A stretch of DNA of 64,000 nt. Source: Microthyrium microscopicum. Lineage: Eukaryota. The stretch spans positions 1,499,345 through 1,563,344 of the forward strand of contig MU004237.1 in assembly GCA_010405405.1 (NCBI GenBank), written 5' to 3'. Both the position numbers and the translations under genes were made by a program. The notes under the pieces were generated by a model, which worked only from the letters and a program-made list of their open reading frames with translations, was not told where the DNA came from and ran no database searches. Below are positions 56,967 to 63,539 of the stretch, in pieces; the first letter of the stretch is position 1, and the number at the start of each line of letters is the position of its first letter.

Positions 56967-58247
56967 GGGAATAAGAGTTTGGAGAGGAGGAGGAAGTATC
57001 TGGCATGAACGCGTAAAGTATGCTATATGGATTTGAGGCAGTACGGTGTTTTAGAACTTACAGGCCCGATATACCGAGAAACGCGACGAGAAGGTGAACG
57101 AAGTCAATGTATGGTGTTGGTGAGAGAAGGATTATGCCTTGATTTCGGTGAAGGAGCCCAATGGAAAATAGCGTAAGGTGGTGAGTTGCCGGTATGGCCA
57201 GGTAGTATAGCCAATCGCTGTCAATGGGAGGTTGATTTATACTTTATGGGCAGACTTACATAGTTCAATGATATGCCATAACGATCTTCCCGTGAAATGA
57301 GCTTTTGATATTGTGGGATGAATGACAACGCTAGCAGAACCGCAACGATTCTATGATATGTAAGCAGTTCTCGTACATCCGTAATGAGGAATCAATGGCT
57401 GACGTTGCGGTTATGGTACTAATATCTTTGTCCATGGTGGTGCTAGTTTGCGTCTAGTTTATCCAAGTTTCGAGGCTTCCTGATCATTCGGTGTCAGTAA
57501 TGACCCTTTAACTGAGCTGGGTTCGAATTGTATTGAATAATGAAGCTGTGACTATCAAGGGTTTCTTACATTCATTGGCTCTCAAGCATCATGAACACTA
57601 TGGCCAATGTATGGTAGAAAAGCATGTGCATATAGAGTAGGCAGCCGCACAACTGTGCCGCACGATCTTCGAAGGATCAATACCCTATCAAGATGTTGCA
57701 CGAACCTGGAAATTCGTACCAAGCAGTTTCAATAGCTTGCGAACGGGGAAATTCAATCCCAGGACTCACTGTTTAATTGCTTTGCCAACGAGATAGGCTC
57801 CCCCTTCCCTGTTCTGCTGTCAACAAATATAGAAGAGCATTTGGAAGAATCTACAACGCAAGAATTGGGGTTGCCAGGCGAATTCAGAAATGATTCGGCG
57901 AGCATTCAACCATTGAAGACTAGATACTACCATGTGAAATCTCATTAGACACATATTACAAAACGCCTTTATTGTCCCATATCCATTTGTCTTTCGCATC
58001 TAGCACTAAGTAAACACATTAAACCCCTATATCGTTGTACAGACCTGGCACCACCTTAAACCTCAGTCCCTGTACAATTTTGCGCCTCCTTTTGATCAAG
58101 CCGCACCCAATAAAAAATATCCCAGCGTCTAACTTTCTTCACTGCAAACCAAAACTCGCTCATGTGAAAGGTGTGCAGTGATTCTATGCCCAGGTCGATA
58201 TGTTCCGTACTCAAGATGAAAGAGCACACAGTTCACTCCGAACGGCG

Positions 58248-59470
58248 CTAGCGGAGGCCAATAACGCTCTGCGTAAAGTTAGCAGGCTAATACCTTATAG
58301 AAGTGGATGAAAGATACCATTTCTAGCGTCCAGACTCTGCGGATCCAGACTTTCAGTTTGCCTTCAACGCCTTCCACGTTCTCCAGCTCAACACCTTCCC
58401 ACCAGCACCTGCGGGCCGGTTTTCGCCAGAACAGCAGGAGCTTTTGGGCCATGCTCACAGCAGGATTGTTAGCATTATTGGCGTCGGGTGCGCCGCGAAT
58501 GTCGGTGCGTAGGCGAGCGAGTGCGATACTACAGATAACAGCTTTATTTGGCTCGCTGGCACGATGACCCCAACGATCTTCTCGGTTGAATCCACTGCTG
58601 ATGGTCAGTTAGATATTTTGAGCGATGGACTAGACATACCCAGCTGTAAGCATTTCAATAAGATGTTGCTCCGTCGTGCCCGGTTCTTCGCTCTTTCGAA
58701 GGCCGGAAAAGATGCCATCTTGTCTCAGTAGTGCTCGACCGGCAGCGCGCTTGACCTCGAGCATTTCCTGTGGTTCGATATCGCGCTTTGGTGGAATGGC
58801 GTAAAAGTCCAGATCCTCTCGAAGGACGATGATACCTGCTCGATCTTGAAGCATGTCTCTTGCAGAGCCAGCCATGGGCTCAATTGGTACCGCCTCTGGA
58901 GCATGTTCACCATTTTCACTAGGTGGTGCAGATCCTGATGCTGGGATAGTGGCAGCTACATGACGAAAGAATTCGAGCATGTATTGTAAGGAATCGGGAT
59001 CATACTGGGAAAAATAACACATGTCAGATATATATAAAGTGGTGTTGGAAAGTACAGTTTGAATATGCCGAATGGCGCGAACAGAAGAGGAACGAGCTTG
59101 AGTAACAGTGGAGAGGGTACTAACGTCTACTGGGTATACATCGCCATCATATGTGCTCATATGGCCTTCAGGTAGAAGGCCATTGGGGAATAATGATAAT
59201 AGGACGAATTCAGGTAGTGTAAGGAGTTCATCACGAGAAAGTGTAAACTTTGTTCCTCTGTATTAGGTTAGTAAGGATACATTACTATATCCCAAGGGTT
59301 TTACCGAAGATCGAGGGTGATATTTTCATCTGAACCGCCTACTATAATTAGCAACTTTTCAGACATGGTTTTAAGGATCGCATACCTGCAAGAGTCGATA
59401 TGGGCGCGCCTACACCAGCACTTTGTGAAACTTGAGTAATGATACTCGCTGGACCACCTGCTGAGGCCAT
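58248..59470 (-). CDS. WHI2: Whi2 stress/nutrient response regulator (BTB/POZ-like); multi-exon, AUG-initiated form
   Basis: MASAGGPASIITQV, ENITLDLR|GTKFTLSRDELLTLPEFVL..LFPNG, IIVLREDLDFYAIP, EQHLIEML, QKLLLFWRKPARRCWW and KVWIRRVWTLEM|SVIGLR*. Confidence 0.88.
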
Positions 59471-61234
59471 AATGTATGATAAGCCTTTTATTGGACTATC
59501 GCCTTCTGTATACGGAGGTGGTGGTTCTCCGTCGTCGAGATCTTTGCTAGGATCCTTGTTGTCGCGAGGAAGTGCAGCCTTGGTATCTGCAACAGTTGAA
59601 GCGCTTGCGGCAGCGGCGGCGGCGGCAGCAGCAGCAGCTGAAGAAGAAGACTGAGGACCAGAAGTAGCGGCAGTAAAGTCGGGGAGAGGTTCGGGCTCTT
59701 CGTCTACTTCGTCTTCGTAGGTCGGGAAAACGGGAAGTGTATGAGTTGACGAGGCCTTGCTTCGAGAGGCAGCGATAAAAGCAGACTCTGGAGTAGAAAA
59801 GAGTGAAGAGAACGAGGGTGGGGCGAGTTCGATCTCAATGTGATCAGGATCTGGCGAAGCTGGTGTGATTGGGAGAGAGGGGGTTGGAGGAGTAGGAGGT
59901 GCGGTATCACCGCGACTTGAAGCTCGTGAGCCCGACAATTTGGTGGTTTAGGATCGCGTCTAAGAAATAATATTGGCGATGAGGCCGTTTGGGAGCGGTG
60001 AAAGCGAAGGGTTGCAAAATGGAGGGCGATTGACGCTTAGACTTGGTGGAGTTCTAGGACCGCATTGAGGGGAGCAGACTCGAGAGGGTATTGAGGGCAA
60101 GATGTATGAAGGGAGAAGAGTTGAGACAGAAGATTGAAGGACCAGAAGTGCTAGAGGAGAGAAAAGGAGGAGTAGAGGGCCAAAATGCAGGTATGGAGGG
60201 TATGGTTGGAGATGTTTGGTTGGGGCGGTCTGTGATGCAGTAGTGGTTGGAGTTGCAGACTCAGTGGAGAGGTCACTCAGTGCCAAGTACTCCATAGGTG
60301 CCGGGGTGGTGGACTGTGGTTTACATCAGGATCCAGTGGCAGGGGGCAGCCGACCATCTGGGCAAGACCAACAGACAACAGAGTCCATTGCACCTGCCAC
60401 CCTGGTCGCCTCGCGCCTGCTTCTTCTAATTGTGGGCTGGGCCGCACCTTCTTCAACCAGTCGGGGCTCTCTGCTGCTCCTTCCACCGCTGTAAAGTGCT
60501 GAATTATCAGACAAGCGACCAATGGCGGTGCAGATCCCAGCGCCTAGATCTAGAGCCGCTTCCATTTTTAGCTTAGCCGCTTCAACATCAAAGTCCATCT
60601 CGTTGATACCCACAACCAATTTCCATACCTTTTCGCAAAAGTCCAGCATTAATCCTTCAGCTTAGAAATGGTCCTCTTTATATTCTTGGGCATGAAAACC
60701 GGTTTCAGTACCTTCAGATCTTCAGTCAGAAACATATCAGATTGAAGGAAGTATGCTGAGCAGGACTAAGACACATTCTGACACAAAATCAGCAATCTAG
60801 ATCAATTGATGGCCTCTGCTGGACAAGGTGTAAGAAATGAAGTTGTCTCCGTTATACACACTTTGCTTGGATCTTAGCACTTCTTTGATAAGAGATCGGA
60901 AGCTTATAGATCTAAATTGCATTCACGATTTCACAAGCTTTCAAGTCTGCCAAATTCGAAGACCTGAGACATTATGGAATGTGTCAATCATACGTACTAT
61001 TTGAATCTGTGAATTGTTCATGCTCCTTGTAAAGAGATTTCAATCAGCCATCAATTGTACAAATAATATTTGGCTCAGCCTAATTGCTTACTTTCGGTAT
61101 AAACTTCAACCAGCAGGGGCAAATTCGCGGGGCTCAAAATACATCTCAACACCAAAATTCCCCATCACCATATCCCCCACGCCACCATTACTCTGCCTTC
61201 CTTCATTCCTTGGTTCCACACCCTCCAAGCAATC

Positions 61235-63539
61235 ATGGAGTCCCAAATAAAGGCTAAATTCCCAACCGTCGACCCTCTCATCTCTGAATACTCCGCCGGC
61301 TACCTGTCCCACGCCGCCCAAGCAGCCTCAGACGAACCAGACTCCGCACCCCTCGACGAAGCTCTCGACTCCATATCCGCCCTTCTCCTCTCAGCCAGCG
61401 GCGATTCATCACCCAGCAATGAGACGAAAGTGCGCACCCTGGTGCAAAGTCTCGTCGATACATTAAATGCCGCCAACAATGCCAACGGGAACGGTGTGAA
61501 TGGCGAGAGAAGTCACCATGGAGCACGCAAACTCGACCAGACAATCCATGTTGCTAGTCAGCGAAATATGAGCTCCACCATGGGTTTGCTGGGCGCATCC
61601 GTGGATCTGGAAAGTGCAGCGGGCAGGAAGGTGGAGAGTCAAGTCGATCGGAAGAAATTGGAGAAGGCGGAGCGAAAGATTAGGGCGAAGCAGGATAGGA
61701 AGGTTATGAAGAACGTGGAGTATGAGGCTAGTAGGTTGTTGAACCAGCCGAATGAGACTCAAAGTTATGAAGAATTTTATATGGCTGTCAATCCGCTGCA
61801 GTTGGGTTCAGATGGCCAGAAGAGCAAAGACATCAAGGTTGATACCTTTGATGTGTCAATTGGTGGGAAGCGTATTTTGTCAGATACGAGTTTGACGTTG
61901 GCGTATGGACGACGGTATGGTTTGGTGGGTCAGAACGGTATTGGTAAATCTACGTTGTTGAGGGCGTTGAGTCGCAGAGAGATTGCTATTCCTACGCATA
62001 TCTCAATTCTGCATGTGGAGCAAGAGGTATGGGATCATGATCACTTTGATGGTATGAAACTGATTTCTTCAGATTATGGGCGACGATACTCCGGCTATAC
62101 AGGCTGTGCTTGATGCAGATGTCTGGCTAAAGCATCTACTCCGCGAACAAGAGAAGATCACCCAGGAGTTGAATGCGCTTGAGAAGCAGCGAGCGACTCT
62201 CGCTGATACTTCTGGTGATGCTGTCCGGCTCGATCAACAGAGAGAAGGTCTCGATACTACACTCAGCGATATTCAAGGAAAGCTTGCCGAAATGGACTCG
62301 GACAAGGCCGAATCAAGAGCAGCTAGCATATTGTTTGGTTTAGGTTTCTCGCAAGAAACTCAGCAGAACCCTACCAAGAGCTTCTCTGGTGGTTGGCGTA
62401 TGAGATTGGCCCTTGCTAGAGCGCTATTCTGTGAGCCAGATCTACTACTGCTCGATGAACCTTCCAACAATCTCGATTTGCCTAGTGTAGGCTGGCTAGG
62501 AAACTATCTCCAAACATACCCAAACACCTTACTCGTAGTTTCTCACGACCGAGCTTTCTTGAACGAAGTGGCCACCGACATCATCCACCAACACTCAGAA
62601 CGTCTCGACTACTACAAAGGAGCAAACTTCGACTCTTTCTATGCCACTCGAGAAGAGCGCCGCAAAGTCGCCAAACGCGAATACGAGAAACAAATGGGCG
62701 AGCGAGCCCATCTCCAAGCCTTCATCGACAAATTCCGCTACAACGCCGCCAAATCCTCCGAAGCTCAATCCCGCATCAAAAAGCTAGAAAAGATGCCCGT
62801 CCTCCAAGCCCCAGAAGCCGAGTACAGTGTCAAATTCCGTTTCCCTGAAGTCGAAAAACTATCACCACCTATCATCCAAATGAGCAATGTAACATTCGGC
62901 TACACCAAAGATAAACTCCTCCTCAACCACGTCGATTTAGACGTTCAACTCGACTCCCGTATCGGCATCGTCGGTCCCAACGGTGCAGGTAAAACCACCG
63001 CTCTTAAACTCCTCATCCAGCAACTCTCACCCTCCTCTGGCCTGATATCACAGCACTCCCGTCTAAGAGTCGGCTACTTCACACAGCACCACATCGACGG
63101 TCTCGACCTAAACATGTCCGCCGTATCCTTCATGGCCCAAAGGTTCCCCGGCAAAACAGACGAAGAATATCGCCGCCATCTCGGCGCTTTCGGCATCACC
63201 GGTATGACTGGCCTTCAAAAGATGGAACTCCTATCCGGTGGTCAAAAGTCTCGTGTAGCATTCGCCTGTCTGTCAAGTACGAATCCCCATATTCTAGTGC
63301 TAGACGAACCGTCTAATCATTTGGATATCGAGGCACTGGATGCGCTAAGTGAGGCACTTAATCTGTTTGAGGGAGGCGTGTTGATGGTTAGTCACGATGT
63401 TACTGTGCTGCAGAAAGTGTGTACTAGTTTGTGGGTTTGTGATAATGGGACGATTGAGCATTTTGATGGAACGGTCAATGATTATAAGAAGAGGATTTTG
63501 GCGCAGGCCGGGGATAGTGGTGTTGTGCAGAAACATTAG
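61235..63539 (+). CDS. GCN20: ABC-F family translational regulator Gcn20; 2 exons
   Basis: Two ABC domains without TM segments (GQNGIGKST / FSGGWRMR / LLLLDEP; GPNGAGKTT / LSGGQKSR / LDEPSNHLD). N-terminal ESQVDRKKLEKAE. Intron 62027-62072. Confidence 0.95.

What the first reader, a model, noticed from the sequence alone, without database searches (positions are those of the whole stretch)
59470..59960. WHI2 has a 156-codon AUG-free in-frame extension starting at a TTG in strong initiation context
Seen: the frame upstream of the first in-frame ATG (59470) is open to 59938 with no Met. It begins just after a stop as TAA-ACC-ACC-AAA-TTG-TCG, a C/A-rich context with A at -3 resembling strong fungal start sites. 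It encodes protein-like sequence with an acidic tract, poly-Ala and EPPPPY. Known: PPxY motifs bind WW domains of Rsp5/Nedd4 ligases, and conserved non-AUG N-terminal extensions occur in filamentous fungi (for example Neurospora cpc-1). Inference: leaky UUG initiation yields a long Whi2 isoform carrying a ubiquitin-ligase docking motif plus a short AUG isoform without it, a translational switch on a nutrient-stress regulator.
Basis: partly seen in the sequence, partly recalled or inferred. Interest (0 to 1): 0.8.

Follow-up and report, generated by a model that had tools for sequence, protein, structure and literature searches.

The report
WHI2 starts at a conserved UUG
This fungal stress-regulator gene (WHI2) most likely begins translation at a weak UUG codon that related fungi have kept in place, giving a long protein with a ubiquitin-ligase docking motif as well as the shorter AUG-started protein that databases annotate.

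Summary
On the minus strand the WHI2 frame is open from a TAA (59950-59948) through TTG 59938 to the first ATG at 59470, which is 156 codons with no ATG in any frame.

A spliced transcript contig has five GT-AG introns removed. It runs unbroken from 59385 to 60195, so no upstream exon supplies an AUG.

I compared 71 related fungal loci with bounded frames.
- 65 of them (61 distinct sequences, 16 clusters at 60% identity) carry TTG, GTG or CTG at the aligned position, and never ATG. A or G sits at -3 in all 61.
- Their extensions hold 4 ATGs in 27,135 nt, against 114 expected.
- In-frame CTG, GTG and ACG are depleted 2-5 fold.
- The third codon position varies most.
- The PPxY motif is present in all 81 sequences.
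- A short uORF lies about 120 nt upstream in 37 of 59 loci.

Public gene models either start at the internal Met or fuse WHI2 to a neighbouring gene.

Best reading: UUG initiation plus leaky scanning gives a 460-aa and a 304-aa isoform. Regulated switching and Rsp5 binding are untested. This is a new member of a known kind. The scan's earlier notes held nothing on WHI2.

The parts
59939..60195 (-). 5' leader of the WHI2 mRNA, at least 257 nt and pyrimidine-rich
   Evidence: The spliced contig of run X1 reaches 60195 with no joint. In related loci ATG density falls from about -240 inward, which fits a transcription start near there.
60054..60065 (-). Three-codon uORF (ATG CGG TCC TAG), out of frame, 127 nt upstream of the TTG. 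It is the only ATG in the leader.
   Evidence: An ATG lies at -145..-95 in 37 of 59 related loci, and 25 of those 37 uORFs are 6 codons or shorter. The uORF aligns at nucleotide level with L002, L008 and L040.
59948..59962 (-). Two in-frame stop codons (TAG 59962-59960 and TAA 59950-59948) that close the frame just upstream of the TTG
   Evidence: Both lie inside the unspliced part of the transcript contig, so any ATG further upstream cannot feed this frame.
59936..59938 (-). Proposed initiation codon TTG, in the context ACC ACC AAA TTG TCG (C at -4, A at -3)
   Evidence: It is the first near-cognate codon after the stop. The aligned codon is TTG, GTG or CTG in 61 of 61 distinct placed relatives. 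Class A context: C at -4 in 43/49, A at -3 in 42/49, C at -2 in 42/49, and T-G at codon positions 2-3 in 49/49.
59471..59935 (-). AUG-free N-terminal extension (155 codons after the TTG). Low-complexity Ser/Pro/Ala-rich sequence with conserved short blocks.
   Evidence: Translation. Protein-level conservation. Codon-position pattern. ATG depletion.
59801..59821 (-). Conserved Pro-Pro-x-Phe-Ser-Ser-Leu block inside the extension
   Evidence: Columns P43, P44, F46, S48 and L49 are invariant in alignment A1.
59555..59584 (-). Conserved Thr-Lys-Ala-Ala-Leu-Pro-x-Asp-x-Lys block inside the extension
   Evidence: Columns K123, A124, A125, L126, D129 and K131 are invariant in A1.
59510..59527 (-). 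PY motif (Glu-Pro-Pro-Pro-Pro-Tyr; PPxY), 14 residues upstream of the internal Met and present only in the long isoform
   Evidence: Columns E141 to Y146 are invariant in A1. The pattern was found in all 81 sequences examined, 80 loci plus the window.
59468..59470 (-). First AUG (A at -3, G at +4). It starts the 304-aa short isoform and the public gene model.
   Evidence: P0261 (310 aa) starts here and matches the short isoform for its first 298 residues. The Met is invariant in A1. In 61 relatives -3 is G in 50, A in 3 and C in 8, and +4 is G in 59.
58248..59467 (-). Rest of the coding region. Exons are 59385-59467, 59305-59337, 59125-59257, 58640-59004, 58318-58594 and 58248-58268 (stop TAG at 58250-58248).
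   Evidence: Exon joints come from the spliced contig. The translation has no stop, giving 460 aa for the long form and 304 aa for the short form.
59005..59124 (-). Intron 3, 120 nt, in frame and free of stops. It is removed in the transcript contig.
   Evidence: In 36 of 51 related loci the frame stays open for at least 72 codons upstream of the next exon, which means through this intron.

Best explanation
The WHI2 mRNA of this fungus has no AUG in front of a conserved 156-codon N-terminal region.

Proposed mechanism, in order:
1. Scanning 40S subunits first meet a three-codon uORF at -127.
2. They then meet a UUG in a good fungal context (C at -4, A at -3). A minority initiate there and make a 460-aa (about 49 kDa) Whi2 whose extra, probably disordered, N-terminus carries a PPxY motif and two other conserved short blocks.
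3. The majority scan on through 468 nt that selection keeps free of AUG in all frames and poor in near-cognate codons.
4. These initiate at the first AUG (59470, A at -3, G at +4) and make the 304-aa (about 33 kDa) protein that databases annotate.

Shown here: the transcript is colinear; the extension is conserved as protein; the start position is held as TTG, GTG or CTG and never as ATG; and start codons are depleted in the stretch between the two starts.

Inferred: that both proteins accumulate; that the PPxY motif recruits an Rsp5/Nedd4-type ligase to the long form only; and that the ratio of the two forms responds to start-codon stringency or ternary-complex supply.
For: Transcript. A spliced contig with five GT..AG introns removed runs from 59385 to 60195 without a joint and includes both in-frame stops. 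The leader has one out-of-frame ATG.

Conserved start.
- Of 71 bounded homologous frames (70 metagenome loci plus the window), 65 were placed by MAFFT. The 61 distinct sequences have TTG in 45, GTG in 13, CTG in 3 and ATG in 0, with A at -3 in 52 and G in 9.
- They form 16 clusters at 60% identity, each with only near-cognate codons there. The window's extension is at most 44% identical to any locus.
- Inside the extensions TTG makes up only 8.6% and CTG 5.3% of Leu codons.
- In-frame stops lie 2-9 codons upstream of the start in 11 sequences.

Coding signature. Pairwise differences at codon positions 1/2/3 are 0.397/0.33/0.643 over 122 columns. In 68 of 71 frames the first Met is the conserved internal one.

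Signs of leaky scanning.
- The extensions hold 4 ATGs in any frame in 27,135 nt, against 113.8 +/- 8.6 in codon-order shuffles (minimum 87 of 1000).
- A downstream exon of the same genes shows 135 out-of-frame ATGs against 117.3 +/- 8.4 expected (51 loci).
- In-frame near-cognate codons, extension versus control exon: CTG 6.3% vs 33.2%, GTG 11.2% vs 26.0%, ACG 10.0% vs 25.9%.
- Other G-ending codons are not depleted: CCG 29.1% vs 22.0%, GCG 22.2% vs 18.8%, TCG 23.7% vs 25.0%.

Short form in a relative. Passages of PMC4184795 and PMC6987382 describe N. crassa WHI-2 as annotated at 297/298 aa. An internally HA-tagged copy with about 1500 bp of 5' sequence complemented the mutant and ran 'very close' to 32.2 kDa.

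Annotation. P0261, which is identical to this gene, and at least 9 other NCBI models start at the internal Met. 63 of 105 hits are 900 aa or longer, and almost all of these carry ABC-transporter Pfam domains (a few carry other or no domains), which I read as fusions to a neighbouring gene.
Against: - There is no direct evidence of translation here: no ribosome footprints, no peptides and no mapped 5' end. Contigs cannot show rare splice forms or alternative transcription starts.
- Run X1 is labelled only 'RNA?'.
- The published N. crassa blot, as described in text (I could not see the figure), reports a size near the short form and mentions no larger band. I also could not check whether N. crassa has the extension.
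- I allowed the start to sit at either of two alignment columns (class A or class B, nine alignment columns apart, about 4-5 residues). This adds some freedom to the 61-of-61 count.
- Six of 71 frames were not placed automatically. By eye, L027 and L029 have GTG and L077 has CTG, each with A at -3. L060 has TTC, with an ACG two codons upstream. L009 and L054 stay unresolved.
- The loci are phylogenetically related, so the counts are not independent events.
- +4 is T in 44 of 49 class A sequences, which is not the optimal G.
- GGG and CGG are also somewhat lower in the extension (9.3% vs 16.5% and 10.0% vs 16.5%), so part of the codon shift may be compositional.
- The strong context of the internal AUG is confounded with the conserved Val-Met-Ala residues.
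Confidence: 0.75

Rival explanations
1. Only the UUG-initiated long protein is functional. The internal AUG is simply a conserved Met residue, and whatever starts there is harmless by-product. Start codons are kept out of the extension only to avoid out-of-frame peptides and mRNA decay triggered by ribosomes that miss the weak start.
For: The conserved block runs straight across the internal Met, from the PPxY motif through the Met into the next conserved stretch. The context of the AUG is dictated by the conserved neighbouring residues. The extension is conserved in all 81 sequences.
Against: If only the long form mattered, a one-base change from TTG to ATG would raise its yield. Yet ATG occurs at this position in 0 of 61 distinct relatives across 16 clusters, which argues that the start is kept weak on purpose. 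In N. crassa the tagged protein is described at the short-form size and the construct complements the mutant (PMC4184795, passages).
Confidence: 0.13
2. The two forms come from two transcripts rather than from leaky scanning. A second promoter or transcription start downstream of the TTG gives an mRNA whose first AUG is 59470, and the long mRNA makes only the long form.
For: Contigs cannot show alternative 5' ends (the output says so). Alternative transcription starts are a common source of truncated isoforms in fungi (my own knowledge).
Against: A separate short transcript would remove the need to keep the long transcript free of ATG in all frames and poor in near-cognate codons, yet both depletions are strong. 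Ribosomes that bypass a UUG will in any case reach the AUG on the long mRNA.
Confidence: 0.07
3. An AUG is supplied after all, either by a minor splice form that joins an upstream AUG exon into the extension, or by read-through from the same-frame upstream ORF (60325-59960).
For: The upstream ORF is in the same frame and has an ATG near 60295. Contigs drop rare variants.
Against: The dominant contig is unspliced across 59385-60195 and ends before that ATG. Two stops (TAG and TAA) separate the frames. In 11 relatives in-frame stops sit 2-9 codons before the conserved start, and distances to the upstream stop range from 2 to 114 codons, so nothing upstream is conserved as coding. Gene predictors that must find an ATG produce mutually inconsistent models.
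Confidence: 0.03
4. The extension is not translated at all. It is a conserved 5' UTR element, and only the 304-aa protein exists.
For: Public annotation, including the model identical to this gene, starts at the internal AUG. N. crassa work uses a 297-aa protein (PMC6987382, passage).
Against: The frame stays open for 125-215 codons in all 61 distinct relatives despite heavy divergence and many indels. The third codon position varies about twice as much as the second. Residue blocks are invariant at protein level. No stable RNA structure was found downstream of the start.
Confidence: 0.02

Closest known systems
Neurospora crassa cpc-1 (GCN4 homologue): conserved non-AUG-initiated N-terminal extension in Pezizomycotina (PMC5487733, passages read)
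   Same: It has an AUG-less in-frame extension of more than 100 codons under purifying selection, conserved near-cognate codons with A at -3, short uORFs in the leader, and a stress or nutrient regulator as its product. Automated annotations are inconsistent there too.
   Different: cpc-1 has two uORFs, with the long inhibitory one overlapping the extension, and several candidate near-cognate starts (CUG, AUU, ACG). WHI2 has one short uORF, a single sharply defined start (mostly UUG) and a stretch free of start codons down to the AUG. For cpc-1, initiation was shown in vitro and supported in vivo. For WHI2 nothing has been tested.
Human KCTD11, translated from an upstream AUU that adds 39 residues (passage in the review PMC6566181, which also presents Whi2 as sharing a BTB domain with KCTD proteins)
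   Same: It is a BTB/KCTD-type protein whose annotated AUG form is N-terminally truncated and whose longer form starts at a non-AUG codon.
   Different: In KCTD11 the extension completes the BTB domain. Here the BTB-containing part lies wholly downstream, and the extension is a separate low-complexity region with short motifs. There is no evidence of common descent of the two extensions.
Dual isoforms from one mRNA by a weak upstream start plus leaky scanning. Examples: fungal 6-phosphogluconate dehydrogenase with a peroxisomal signal (PMC7214817, abstract only), the yeast cryptic mitochondrial isoforms (PMC6582344, abstract only) and PTEN AUU proteoforms (PMC4892431, listing only).
   Same: A near-cognate start upstream of the annotated AUG adds an N-terminal segment that carries a functional signal absent from the AUG form.
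   Different: In those cases the added segment is mostly an organelle-targeting signal. Here it is a 156-residue region with a PPxY motif. The near-total removal of ATG (about 28-fold below expectation) over about 470 nt across many lineages is a cleaner signature than I saw described in those abstracts.
PY-motif (PPxY) partners of Nedd4/Rsp5 WW domains (PMC2171029 and PMC2171676, abstracts only)
   Same: A strictly conserved Pro-Pro-x-Tyr in a proline-rich, apparently unstructured segment.
   Different: Binding is untested. My searches found no paper that links Whi2 to a PPxY motif.

Membership tests
Conserved non-AUG-initiated N-terminal extension with a downstream AUG isoform | The frame is open upstream of the first AUG, has no in-frame AUG, and lies inside the mature mRNA | tested here: met
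   Searches give the frame, stop, TTG and ATG. One search shows the spliced contig colinear from 59385 to 60195. One search shows a 257-nt leader with one out-of-frame ATG.
Conserved non-AUG-initiated N-terminal extension with a downstream AUG isoform | The extension is under purifying selection as protein | tested here: met
   A1 has invariant blocks. Pairwise codon-position differences are 0.397/0.33/0.643. The frame is open for 125-215 codons in 61 distinct relatives.
Conserved non-AUG-initiated N-terminal extension with a downstream AUG isoform | A near-cognate codon in favourable context is conserved at the 5' edge of the conserved coding sequence | tested here: met
   TTG in 45, GTG in 13, CTG in 3 and ATG in 0 of 61 distinct sequences. 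At -3, A in 52 and G in 9. The position matrix is and the 16 clusters. Two alternative alignment columns were allowed.
Conserved non-AUG-initiated N-terminal extension with a downstream AUG isoform | No AUG in any frame between the weak start and the AUG, the prerequisite for leaky scanning | tested here: met
   Window: 0 observed against 3.25 expected. Relatives: 4 against 113.8 +/- 8.6. The control exon shows no depletion.
Conserved non-AUG-initiated N-terminal extension with a downstream AUG isoform | Direct demonstration of initiation at the near-cognate codon (footprints, N-terminal peptides, mutagenesis) | not testable with these tools
   No raw RNA or ribosome-profiling run was on offer. 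One search listed one run, held as contigs.
Whi2 / BTB (KCTD-like) stress-response regulators | Sequence homology to proteins named Whi2 | tested here: inconclusive
   Sources name close homologues 'WHI2-like protein P4H10.16c' (P0095, P0285) and 'General stress response protein' (P0078, P0261). No Pfam family matched at E <= 0.01 and no PDB sequence at E <= 1. No yeast Whi2 sequence was compared here.
Whi2 / BTB (KCTD-like) stress-response regulators | BTB/POZ fold in the C-terminal part | tested here: inconclusive
   The AlphaFold2 model of P0057 on a 24-sequence alignment was poor, with mean pLDDT 41.9 and pTM 0.25. No fold search was run on it.
PY-motif ligands of Rsp5/Nedd4 WW domains | A conserved PPxY motif | tested here: met
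   It is invariant in A1, and the pattern was found in 81 of 81 sequences.
PY-motif ligands of Rsp5/Nedd4 WW domains | The motif lies in an accessible, unstructured segment | tested here: inconclusive
   Residues 1-165 of the model have no secondary structure, but confidence is low throughout.
PY-motif ligands of Rsp5/Nedd4 WW domains | Physical binding to a WW domain of the fungus's own HECT ligase | not testable with these tools
   No genome is held for this window, so no WW-domain protein of this organism could be fetched.
GCN4/cpc-1-type uORF control by delayed reinitiation | A very short reinitiation-permissive uORF upstream of the regulated start | tested here: met
   The window has a 3-codon uORF at -127. 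An ATG lies at -145..-95 in 37 of 59 loci, and uORF lengths are 2-6 codons in 25 of those 37.
GCN4/cpc-1-type uORF control by delayed reinitiation | A second, inhibitory uORF that captures reinitiating ribosomes | tested here: not met
   The window's leader holds only one ATG. If the scheme applies here, the UUG start itself would have to play that part.

The most novel reading that the evidence does not exclude
The WHI2 mRNA of filamentous ascomycetes works as a built-in sensor of translation status. After the three-codon uORF, reinitiating 40S subunits have about 110 nt to reload initiator tRNA before the UUG, and then about 470 nt free of start codons before the AUG. When ternary complex is scarce or start-codon stringency rises (amino-acid starvation, Gcn2/CPC-3, the eIF1/eIF5 balance), more subunits skip the UUG. 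Output then shifts from the PPxY-bearing long Whi2 to the short Whi2 that lacks the motif. The long form would be handled by an Rsp5/HulA-type ligase. This would link the starvation response directly to a regulator of TORC1. The conserved neighbourhood with a GCN20-like ABC-F gene would then be more than chance.
Probability: 0.2. Interest if true: 0.85.

Novelty: new member of a known kind. Interest (0 to 1): 0.68.

Why it matters
Whi2 is studied as a stress, TORC1 and cell-fusion regulator in Neurospora, Magnaporthe and other fungi, using gene models that start at the internal AUG (297 aa in N. crassa). If the conserved start is the upstream UUG, those models omit a third of the protein, including its most conserved short motifs. 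Tagging, complementation and interaction experiments may then have missed an isoform.

The case also exposes a systematic annotation failure. In public databases the gene is either truncated or fused to a neighbouring gene, most often an upstream ABC-F gene, in dozens of genomes. The false 'ABC-F' name has spread to metagenome ORFs.

It also gives a clean natural example for studying why a weak start codon is held in place. ATG never replaces it in 61 distinct relatives, and the sequence between the two starts is kept almost free of start codons.

Tried and rejected
1. RNA runs. No RNA holder is listed on record. The single run offered (X1) is labelled 'RNA?' and is held as contigs only. It therefore says nothing about transcript 5' ends, expression levels or rare splice forms.

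2. Proteins that begin with Met at the aligned start position (P0053, P0004, P0006, P0137). I first read these as AUG/UUG interchange and then rejected that. Logan-derived proteins carry M where near-identical DNA loci have TTG or GTG (P0014 vs L022/L045, P0058 vs L003, P0100 vs L014). The M is an ORF-caller convention.

3. Structure-assisted initiation. I found no stable hairpin downstream of the start. In the window z = -0.69. Over 61 relatives the mean z was 0.14, and none fell below -2.

4. AlphaFold2 of a full-length relative gave a poor model. Nothing was built on it and no fold search was run.

5. Pfam and PDB sequence search returned nothing.

6. A WW-domain partner could not be tested. 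No genome is held for the window, so no complex prediction was made.

7. Cluster look-up for taxon names gave no organism names. It only showed the spread of the 'ABC-F' label.

I replaced it with an alignment-column approach.

The supplements of PMC5487733 may list further genes with non-AUG extensions, and I could not see them. Figure 3 of PMC4184795 (the WHI-2 blot) is not held.

10. Read-through from the same-frame upstream ORF was considered and rejected (see rivals).

11. The scan's earlier notes held nothing on WHI2.

12. Prior reports. Searches for 'whi2' with 'non-AUG' gave 1 unrelated paper. 'whi2/PPxY/Rsp5' listed no paper with both whi2 and PPxY among the 12 shown of 191. 'NCU10518' gave 5 papers, none about translation starts by title. 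On these searches the feature is not in print in the library searched.
Full report
**What is in the window**

The gene lies on the minus strand. Reading that strand, an in-frame TAA (59950-59948) is followed by ACC ACC AAA TTG TCG. The frame then stays open to the donor of the first intron, and the first in-frame ATG is at 59470. From the TTG (59938) to that ATG there are 156 codons and no Met.

There is no ATG in any frame across these 468 nt. And a same-frame ORF further upstream (60325-59960) is cut off by two stops, TAG and TAA.

For the window alone, codon-order shuffles give 3.25 ATGs on average, and only 1.6% give none. Mononucleotide shuffles with neither an ATG nor an in-frame stop were 0 of 5000.

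**Transcript evidence**

One public run holds the stretch. It is labelled 'RNA?' and is kept as contigs. Laid on 57500-61600, it gives one contig of 1895 nt at depth 1661. This contig lacks five segments with CT..AC ends on the plus strand, which are GT..AG introns on the gene's strand. It runs without any joint from 59385 to 60195.

The contig therefore comes from spliced RNA. The extension, the TTG, both upstream stops and 257 nt of leader lie on one exon. Joined as the contig dictates, the message has:
- one ATG in its leader, at -127, opening a three-codon out-of-frame uORF;
- a 460-aa (49.2 kDa) frame from the TTG;
- a 304-aa (33.4 kDa) frame from the ATG.

Contigs cannot exclude rare splice forms or internal transcription starts.

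**Protein-level conservation**

A word-indexed search with exon 1 found 105 longer proteins. An exhaustive HMMER search found 176 representatives at E <= 0.001. An alignment of 17 of them shows invariant blocks well upstream of the internal Met. These are a Pro-Pro-x-Phe-Ser-Ser-Leu block, a Thr-Lys-Ala-Ala-Leu-Pro block and the PPxY motif. The internal Met itself is also invariant.

Public gene models disagree about the N-terminus.
- 63 of the 105 hits are 900 aa or longer. Almost all carry ABC-transporter Pfam domains, which I read as fusions to an upstream ABC-F gene. A few carry an amidase, a peptidase M49 or another domain, or none.
- Others use assorted far-upstream ATGs.
- At least ten NCBI models start exactly at the internal Met. 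One of them is P0261. Its source names it as a Microthyrium microscopicum protein, and it matches this window's short form over its first 298 residues.

**DNA of relatives**

One scan of metagenome contigs returned 80 loci. With the window that makes 81 sequences, and all 81 contain the PPxY pattern followed by the internal Met. Ten run off a contig end, which leaves 71 bounded frames. In 68 of those 71 the first Met of the whole open frame is the conserved internal one. The other three (L056, L057, L067) have a single Met 101 codons upstream of the start motif.

MAFFT aligned a short conserved block at the N-terminal edge. I read the codon at the column aligned to the window's TTG (class A). 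Where that column held no near-cognate Leu or Val codon, I read a second conserved column nine alignment columns downstream (class B). That choice is mine, and it adds some freedom to the count.

Of the 71 frames, 65 were placed, giving 61 distinct sequences. Results for those 61:
- Start codon: TTG 45, GTG 13, CTG 3, ATG 0.
- Position -3: A 52, G 9.

In class A (49 sequences):
- -4 is C in 43, -3 is A in 42 and -2 is C in 42.
- Codon positions 2 and 3 are T and G in all 49.
- +4 is T in 44 and +5 is C in 48.

The 61 sequences fall into 16 clusters at 60% identity, and every cluster has only near-cognate codons at the start. The window is a singleton, at most 44% identical to any locus. Inside the same extensions TTG and CTG are rare Leu codons, at 8.6% and 5.3%.

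In-frame stops sit 2-9 codons upstream of the start in 11 sequences, while in others the distance is up to 114 codons. So nothing upstream is conserved as coding.

Of the six frames not placed automatically:
- three have GTG or CTG with A at -3 by eye;
- one has TTC, with an ACG two codons upstream;
- two are unresolved.

**A correction to my own reading**

I first took relatives that begin with Met at the aligned position as evidence that some species carry ATG there. That does not hold. Transcript-derived proteins from one source begin with M where near-identical DNA loci show TTG or GTG. The M is a convention of the ORF caller.

Those proteins still show one thing. Spliced messages from other species carry the extension in frame with the downstream exons.

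**Signatures of scanning**

The extensions of the 61 relatives hold 4 ATGs in any frame in 27,135 nt. Shuffling codon order gives 113.8 +/- 8.6, and never fewer than 87 in 1000 trials. A downstream exon of the same genes (51 loci, 18,135 nt) shows 135 out-of-frame ATGs against 117.3 +/- 8.4 expected, plus 245 in-frame ones.

In-frame near-cognate codons are also depleted in the extension relative to that exon.

| Codon | Extension | Control exon |
|---|---|---|
| CTG (of CTN) | 6.3% | 33.2% |
| GTG (of GTN) | 11.2% | 26.0% |
| ACG (of ACN) | 10.0% | 25.9% |
| TTG (of Leu) | 8.6% | 22.4% |
| CCG | 29.1% | 22.0% |
| GCG | 22.2% | 18.8% |
| TCG | 23.7% | 25.0% |
| GGG | 9.3% | 16.5% |
| CGG | 10.0% | 16.5% |

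G-ending codons that cannot start translation (CCG, GCG, TCG) are not depleted. GGG and CGG are moderately lower, so composition may contribute a little.

Codon-position differences of 0.397/0.33/0.643 show selection on the protein. Together these patterns are what one expects of coding sequence that most 40S subunits traverse while still scanning.

**Leader architecture**

Across relatives, ATG density changes with distance from the start:
- 0.3-0.55 per 20 nt beyond -240;
- 0.05-0.14 between -240 and -141;
- a peak of 0.24-0.34 at -140 to -101;
- zero from -20 onward.

An ATG lies at -145..-95 in 37 of 59 loci. Of those 37 uORFs, 15 are exactly three codons and 25 are six codons or fewer. 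The window's uORF aligns at nucleotide level with those of L002, L008 and L040. No stable structure follows the start codon.

**Literature**

Passages of PMC5487733 describe the closest precedent, the conserved near-cognate-initiated extension of cpc-1 in Pezizomycotina. WHI2 is not mentioned in its main text.

Passages of PMC6987382 and PMC4184795 give N. crassa WHI-2 as 297/298 aa and 32.2 kDa. An internally HA-tagged copy, under its own promoter with about 1500 bp of 5' sequence, complemented the deletion and ran 'very close' to the predicted size. This supports the reality of the short form in a relative and argues against the long form being dominant there. However, I could not see the blot, and I could not check whether N. 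crassa has the extension.

A review passage (PMC6566181) notes that human KCTD11, of the BTB family to which it relates Whi2, starts at an upstream AUU.

My searches found no report of a non-AUG start or a PPxY motif in Whi2.

**Conclusion**

The most likely mechanism is initiation at a deliberately weak UUG, followed by leaky scanning to the first AUG, giving a PPxY-bearing long Whi2 and the annotated short Whi2.

Direct proof of translation, the role of the PPxY motif and any regulated switching remain to be shown. The kind of mechanism is known. This instance, its depth of conservation, the cleanness of its signatures and its consequences for annotation appear to be new.

Noticed in passing
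window 59005-59124 (minus strand), and loci: Intron 3 of WHI2 (120 nt) is in frame and free of stops. It is spliced out in the transcript contig. In 36 of 51 related loci the frame stays open through the equivalent intron, and one locus (L037) lacks the intron. Several public models translate it. This could be a retained-intron ('exitron') coding isoform. Alternatively, conserved branch-point and acceptor signals may just happen to read as peptide.
   Followed up: partly
window 61212-62113 (plus strand) versus WHI2 at 57994-60195: A GCN20-like ABC-F gene sits head-to-head with WHI2 here, about 1 kb apart. In many other Dothideomycetes the two are in tandem, and gene predictors fuse them: 63 of 105 hits are 900 aa or longer, almost all with ABC-transporter domains. 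The neighbourhood is conserved although the orientation differs.
   Followed up: partly
proteins P0107, P0108, P0110, P0262 and others: Metagenome ORFs that contain only WHI2 sequence are named 'ATP-binding cassette subfamily F protein 3' by their source. The label seems to have spread from the chimeric ABC-F/WHI2 gene models.
   Followed up: no
window 59960-60325 (minus strand): A 121-codon stop-to-stop frame lies in the same frame as WHI2 and has an ATG near 60295. It is pyrimidine-rich, not conserved in relatives, and mostly outside the transcript contig. It is probably a chance frame in promoter and leader sequence.
   Followed up: partly
window 57569-57707 and 60636-60830: Run X1 has low-depth contigs (depth 5-8) outside the WHI2 message, one downstream of the gene and one in the intergenic region. 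These could be weak transcription or DNA carry-over.
   Followed up: no
loci L012, L013, L018, L043, L046, L059, L060: One lineage has an ACG with A at -3 and G at +4 two codons before the conserved TTG. In L060 the TTG has become TTC while the ACG remains. This suggests that the start can hop between adjacent near-cognate codons.
   Followed up: partly
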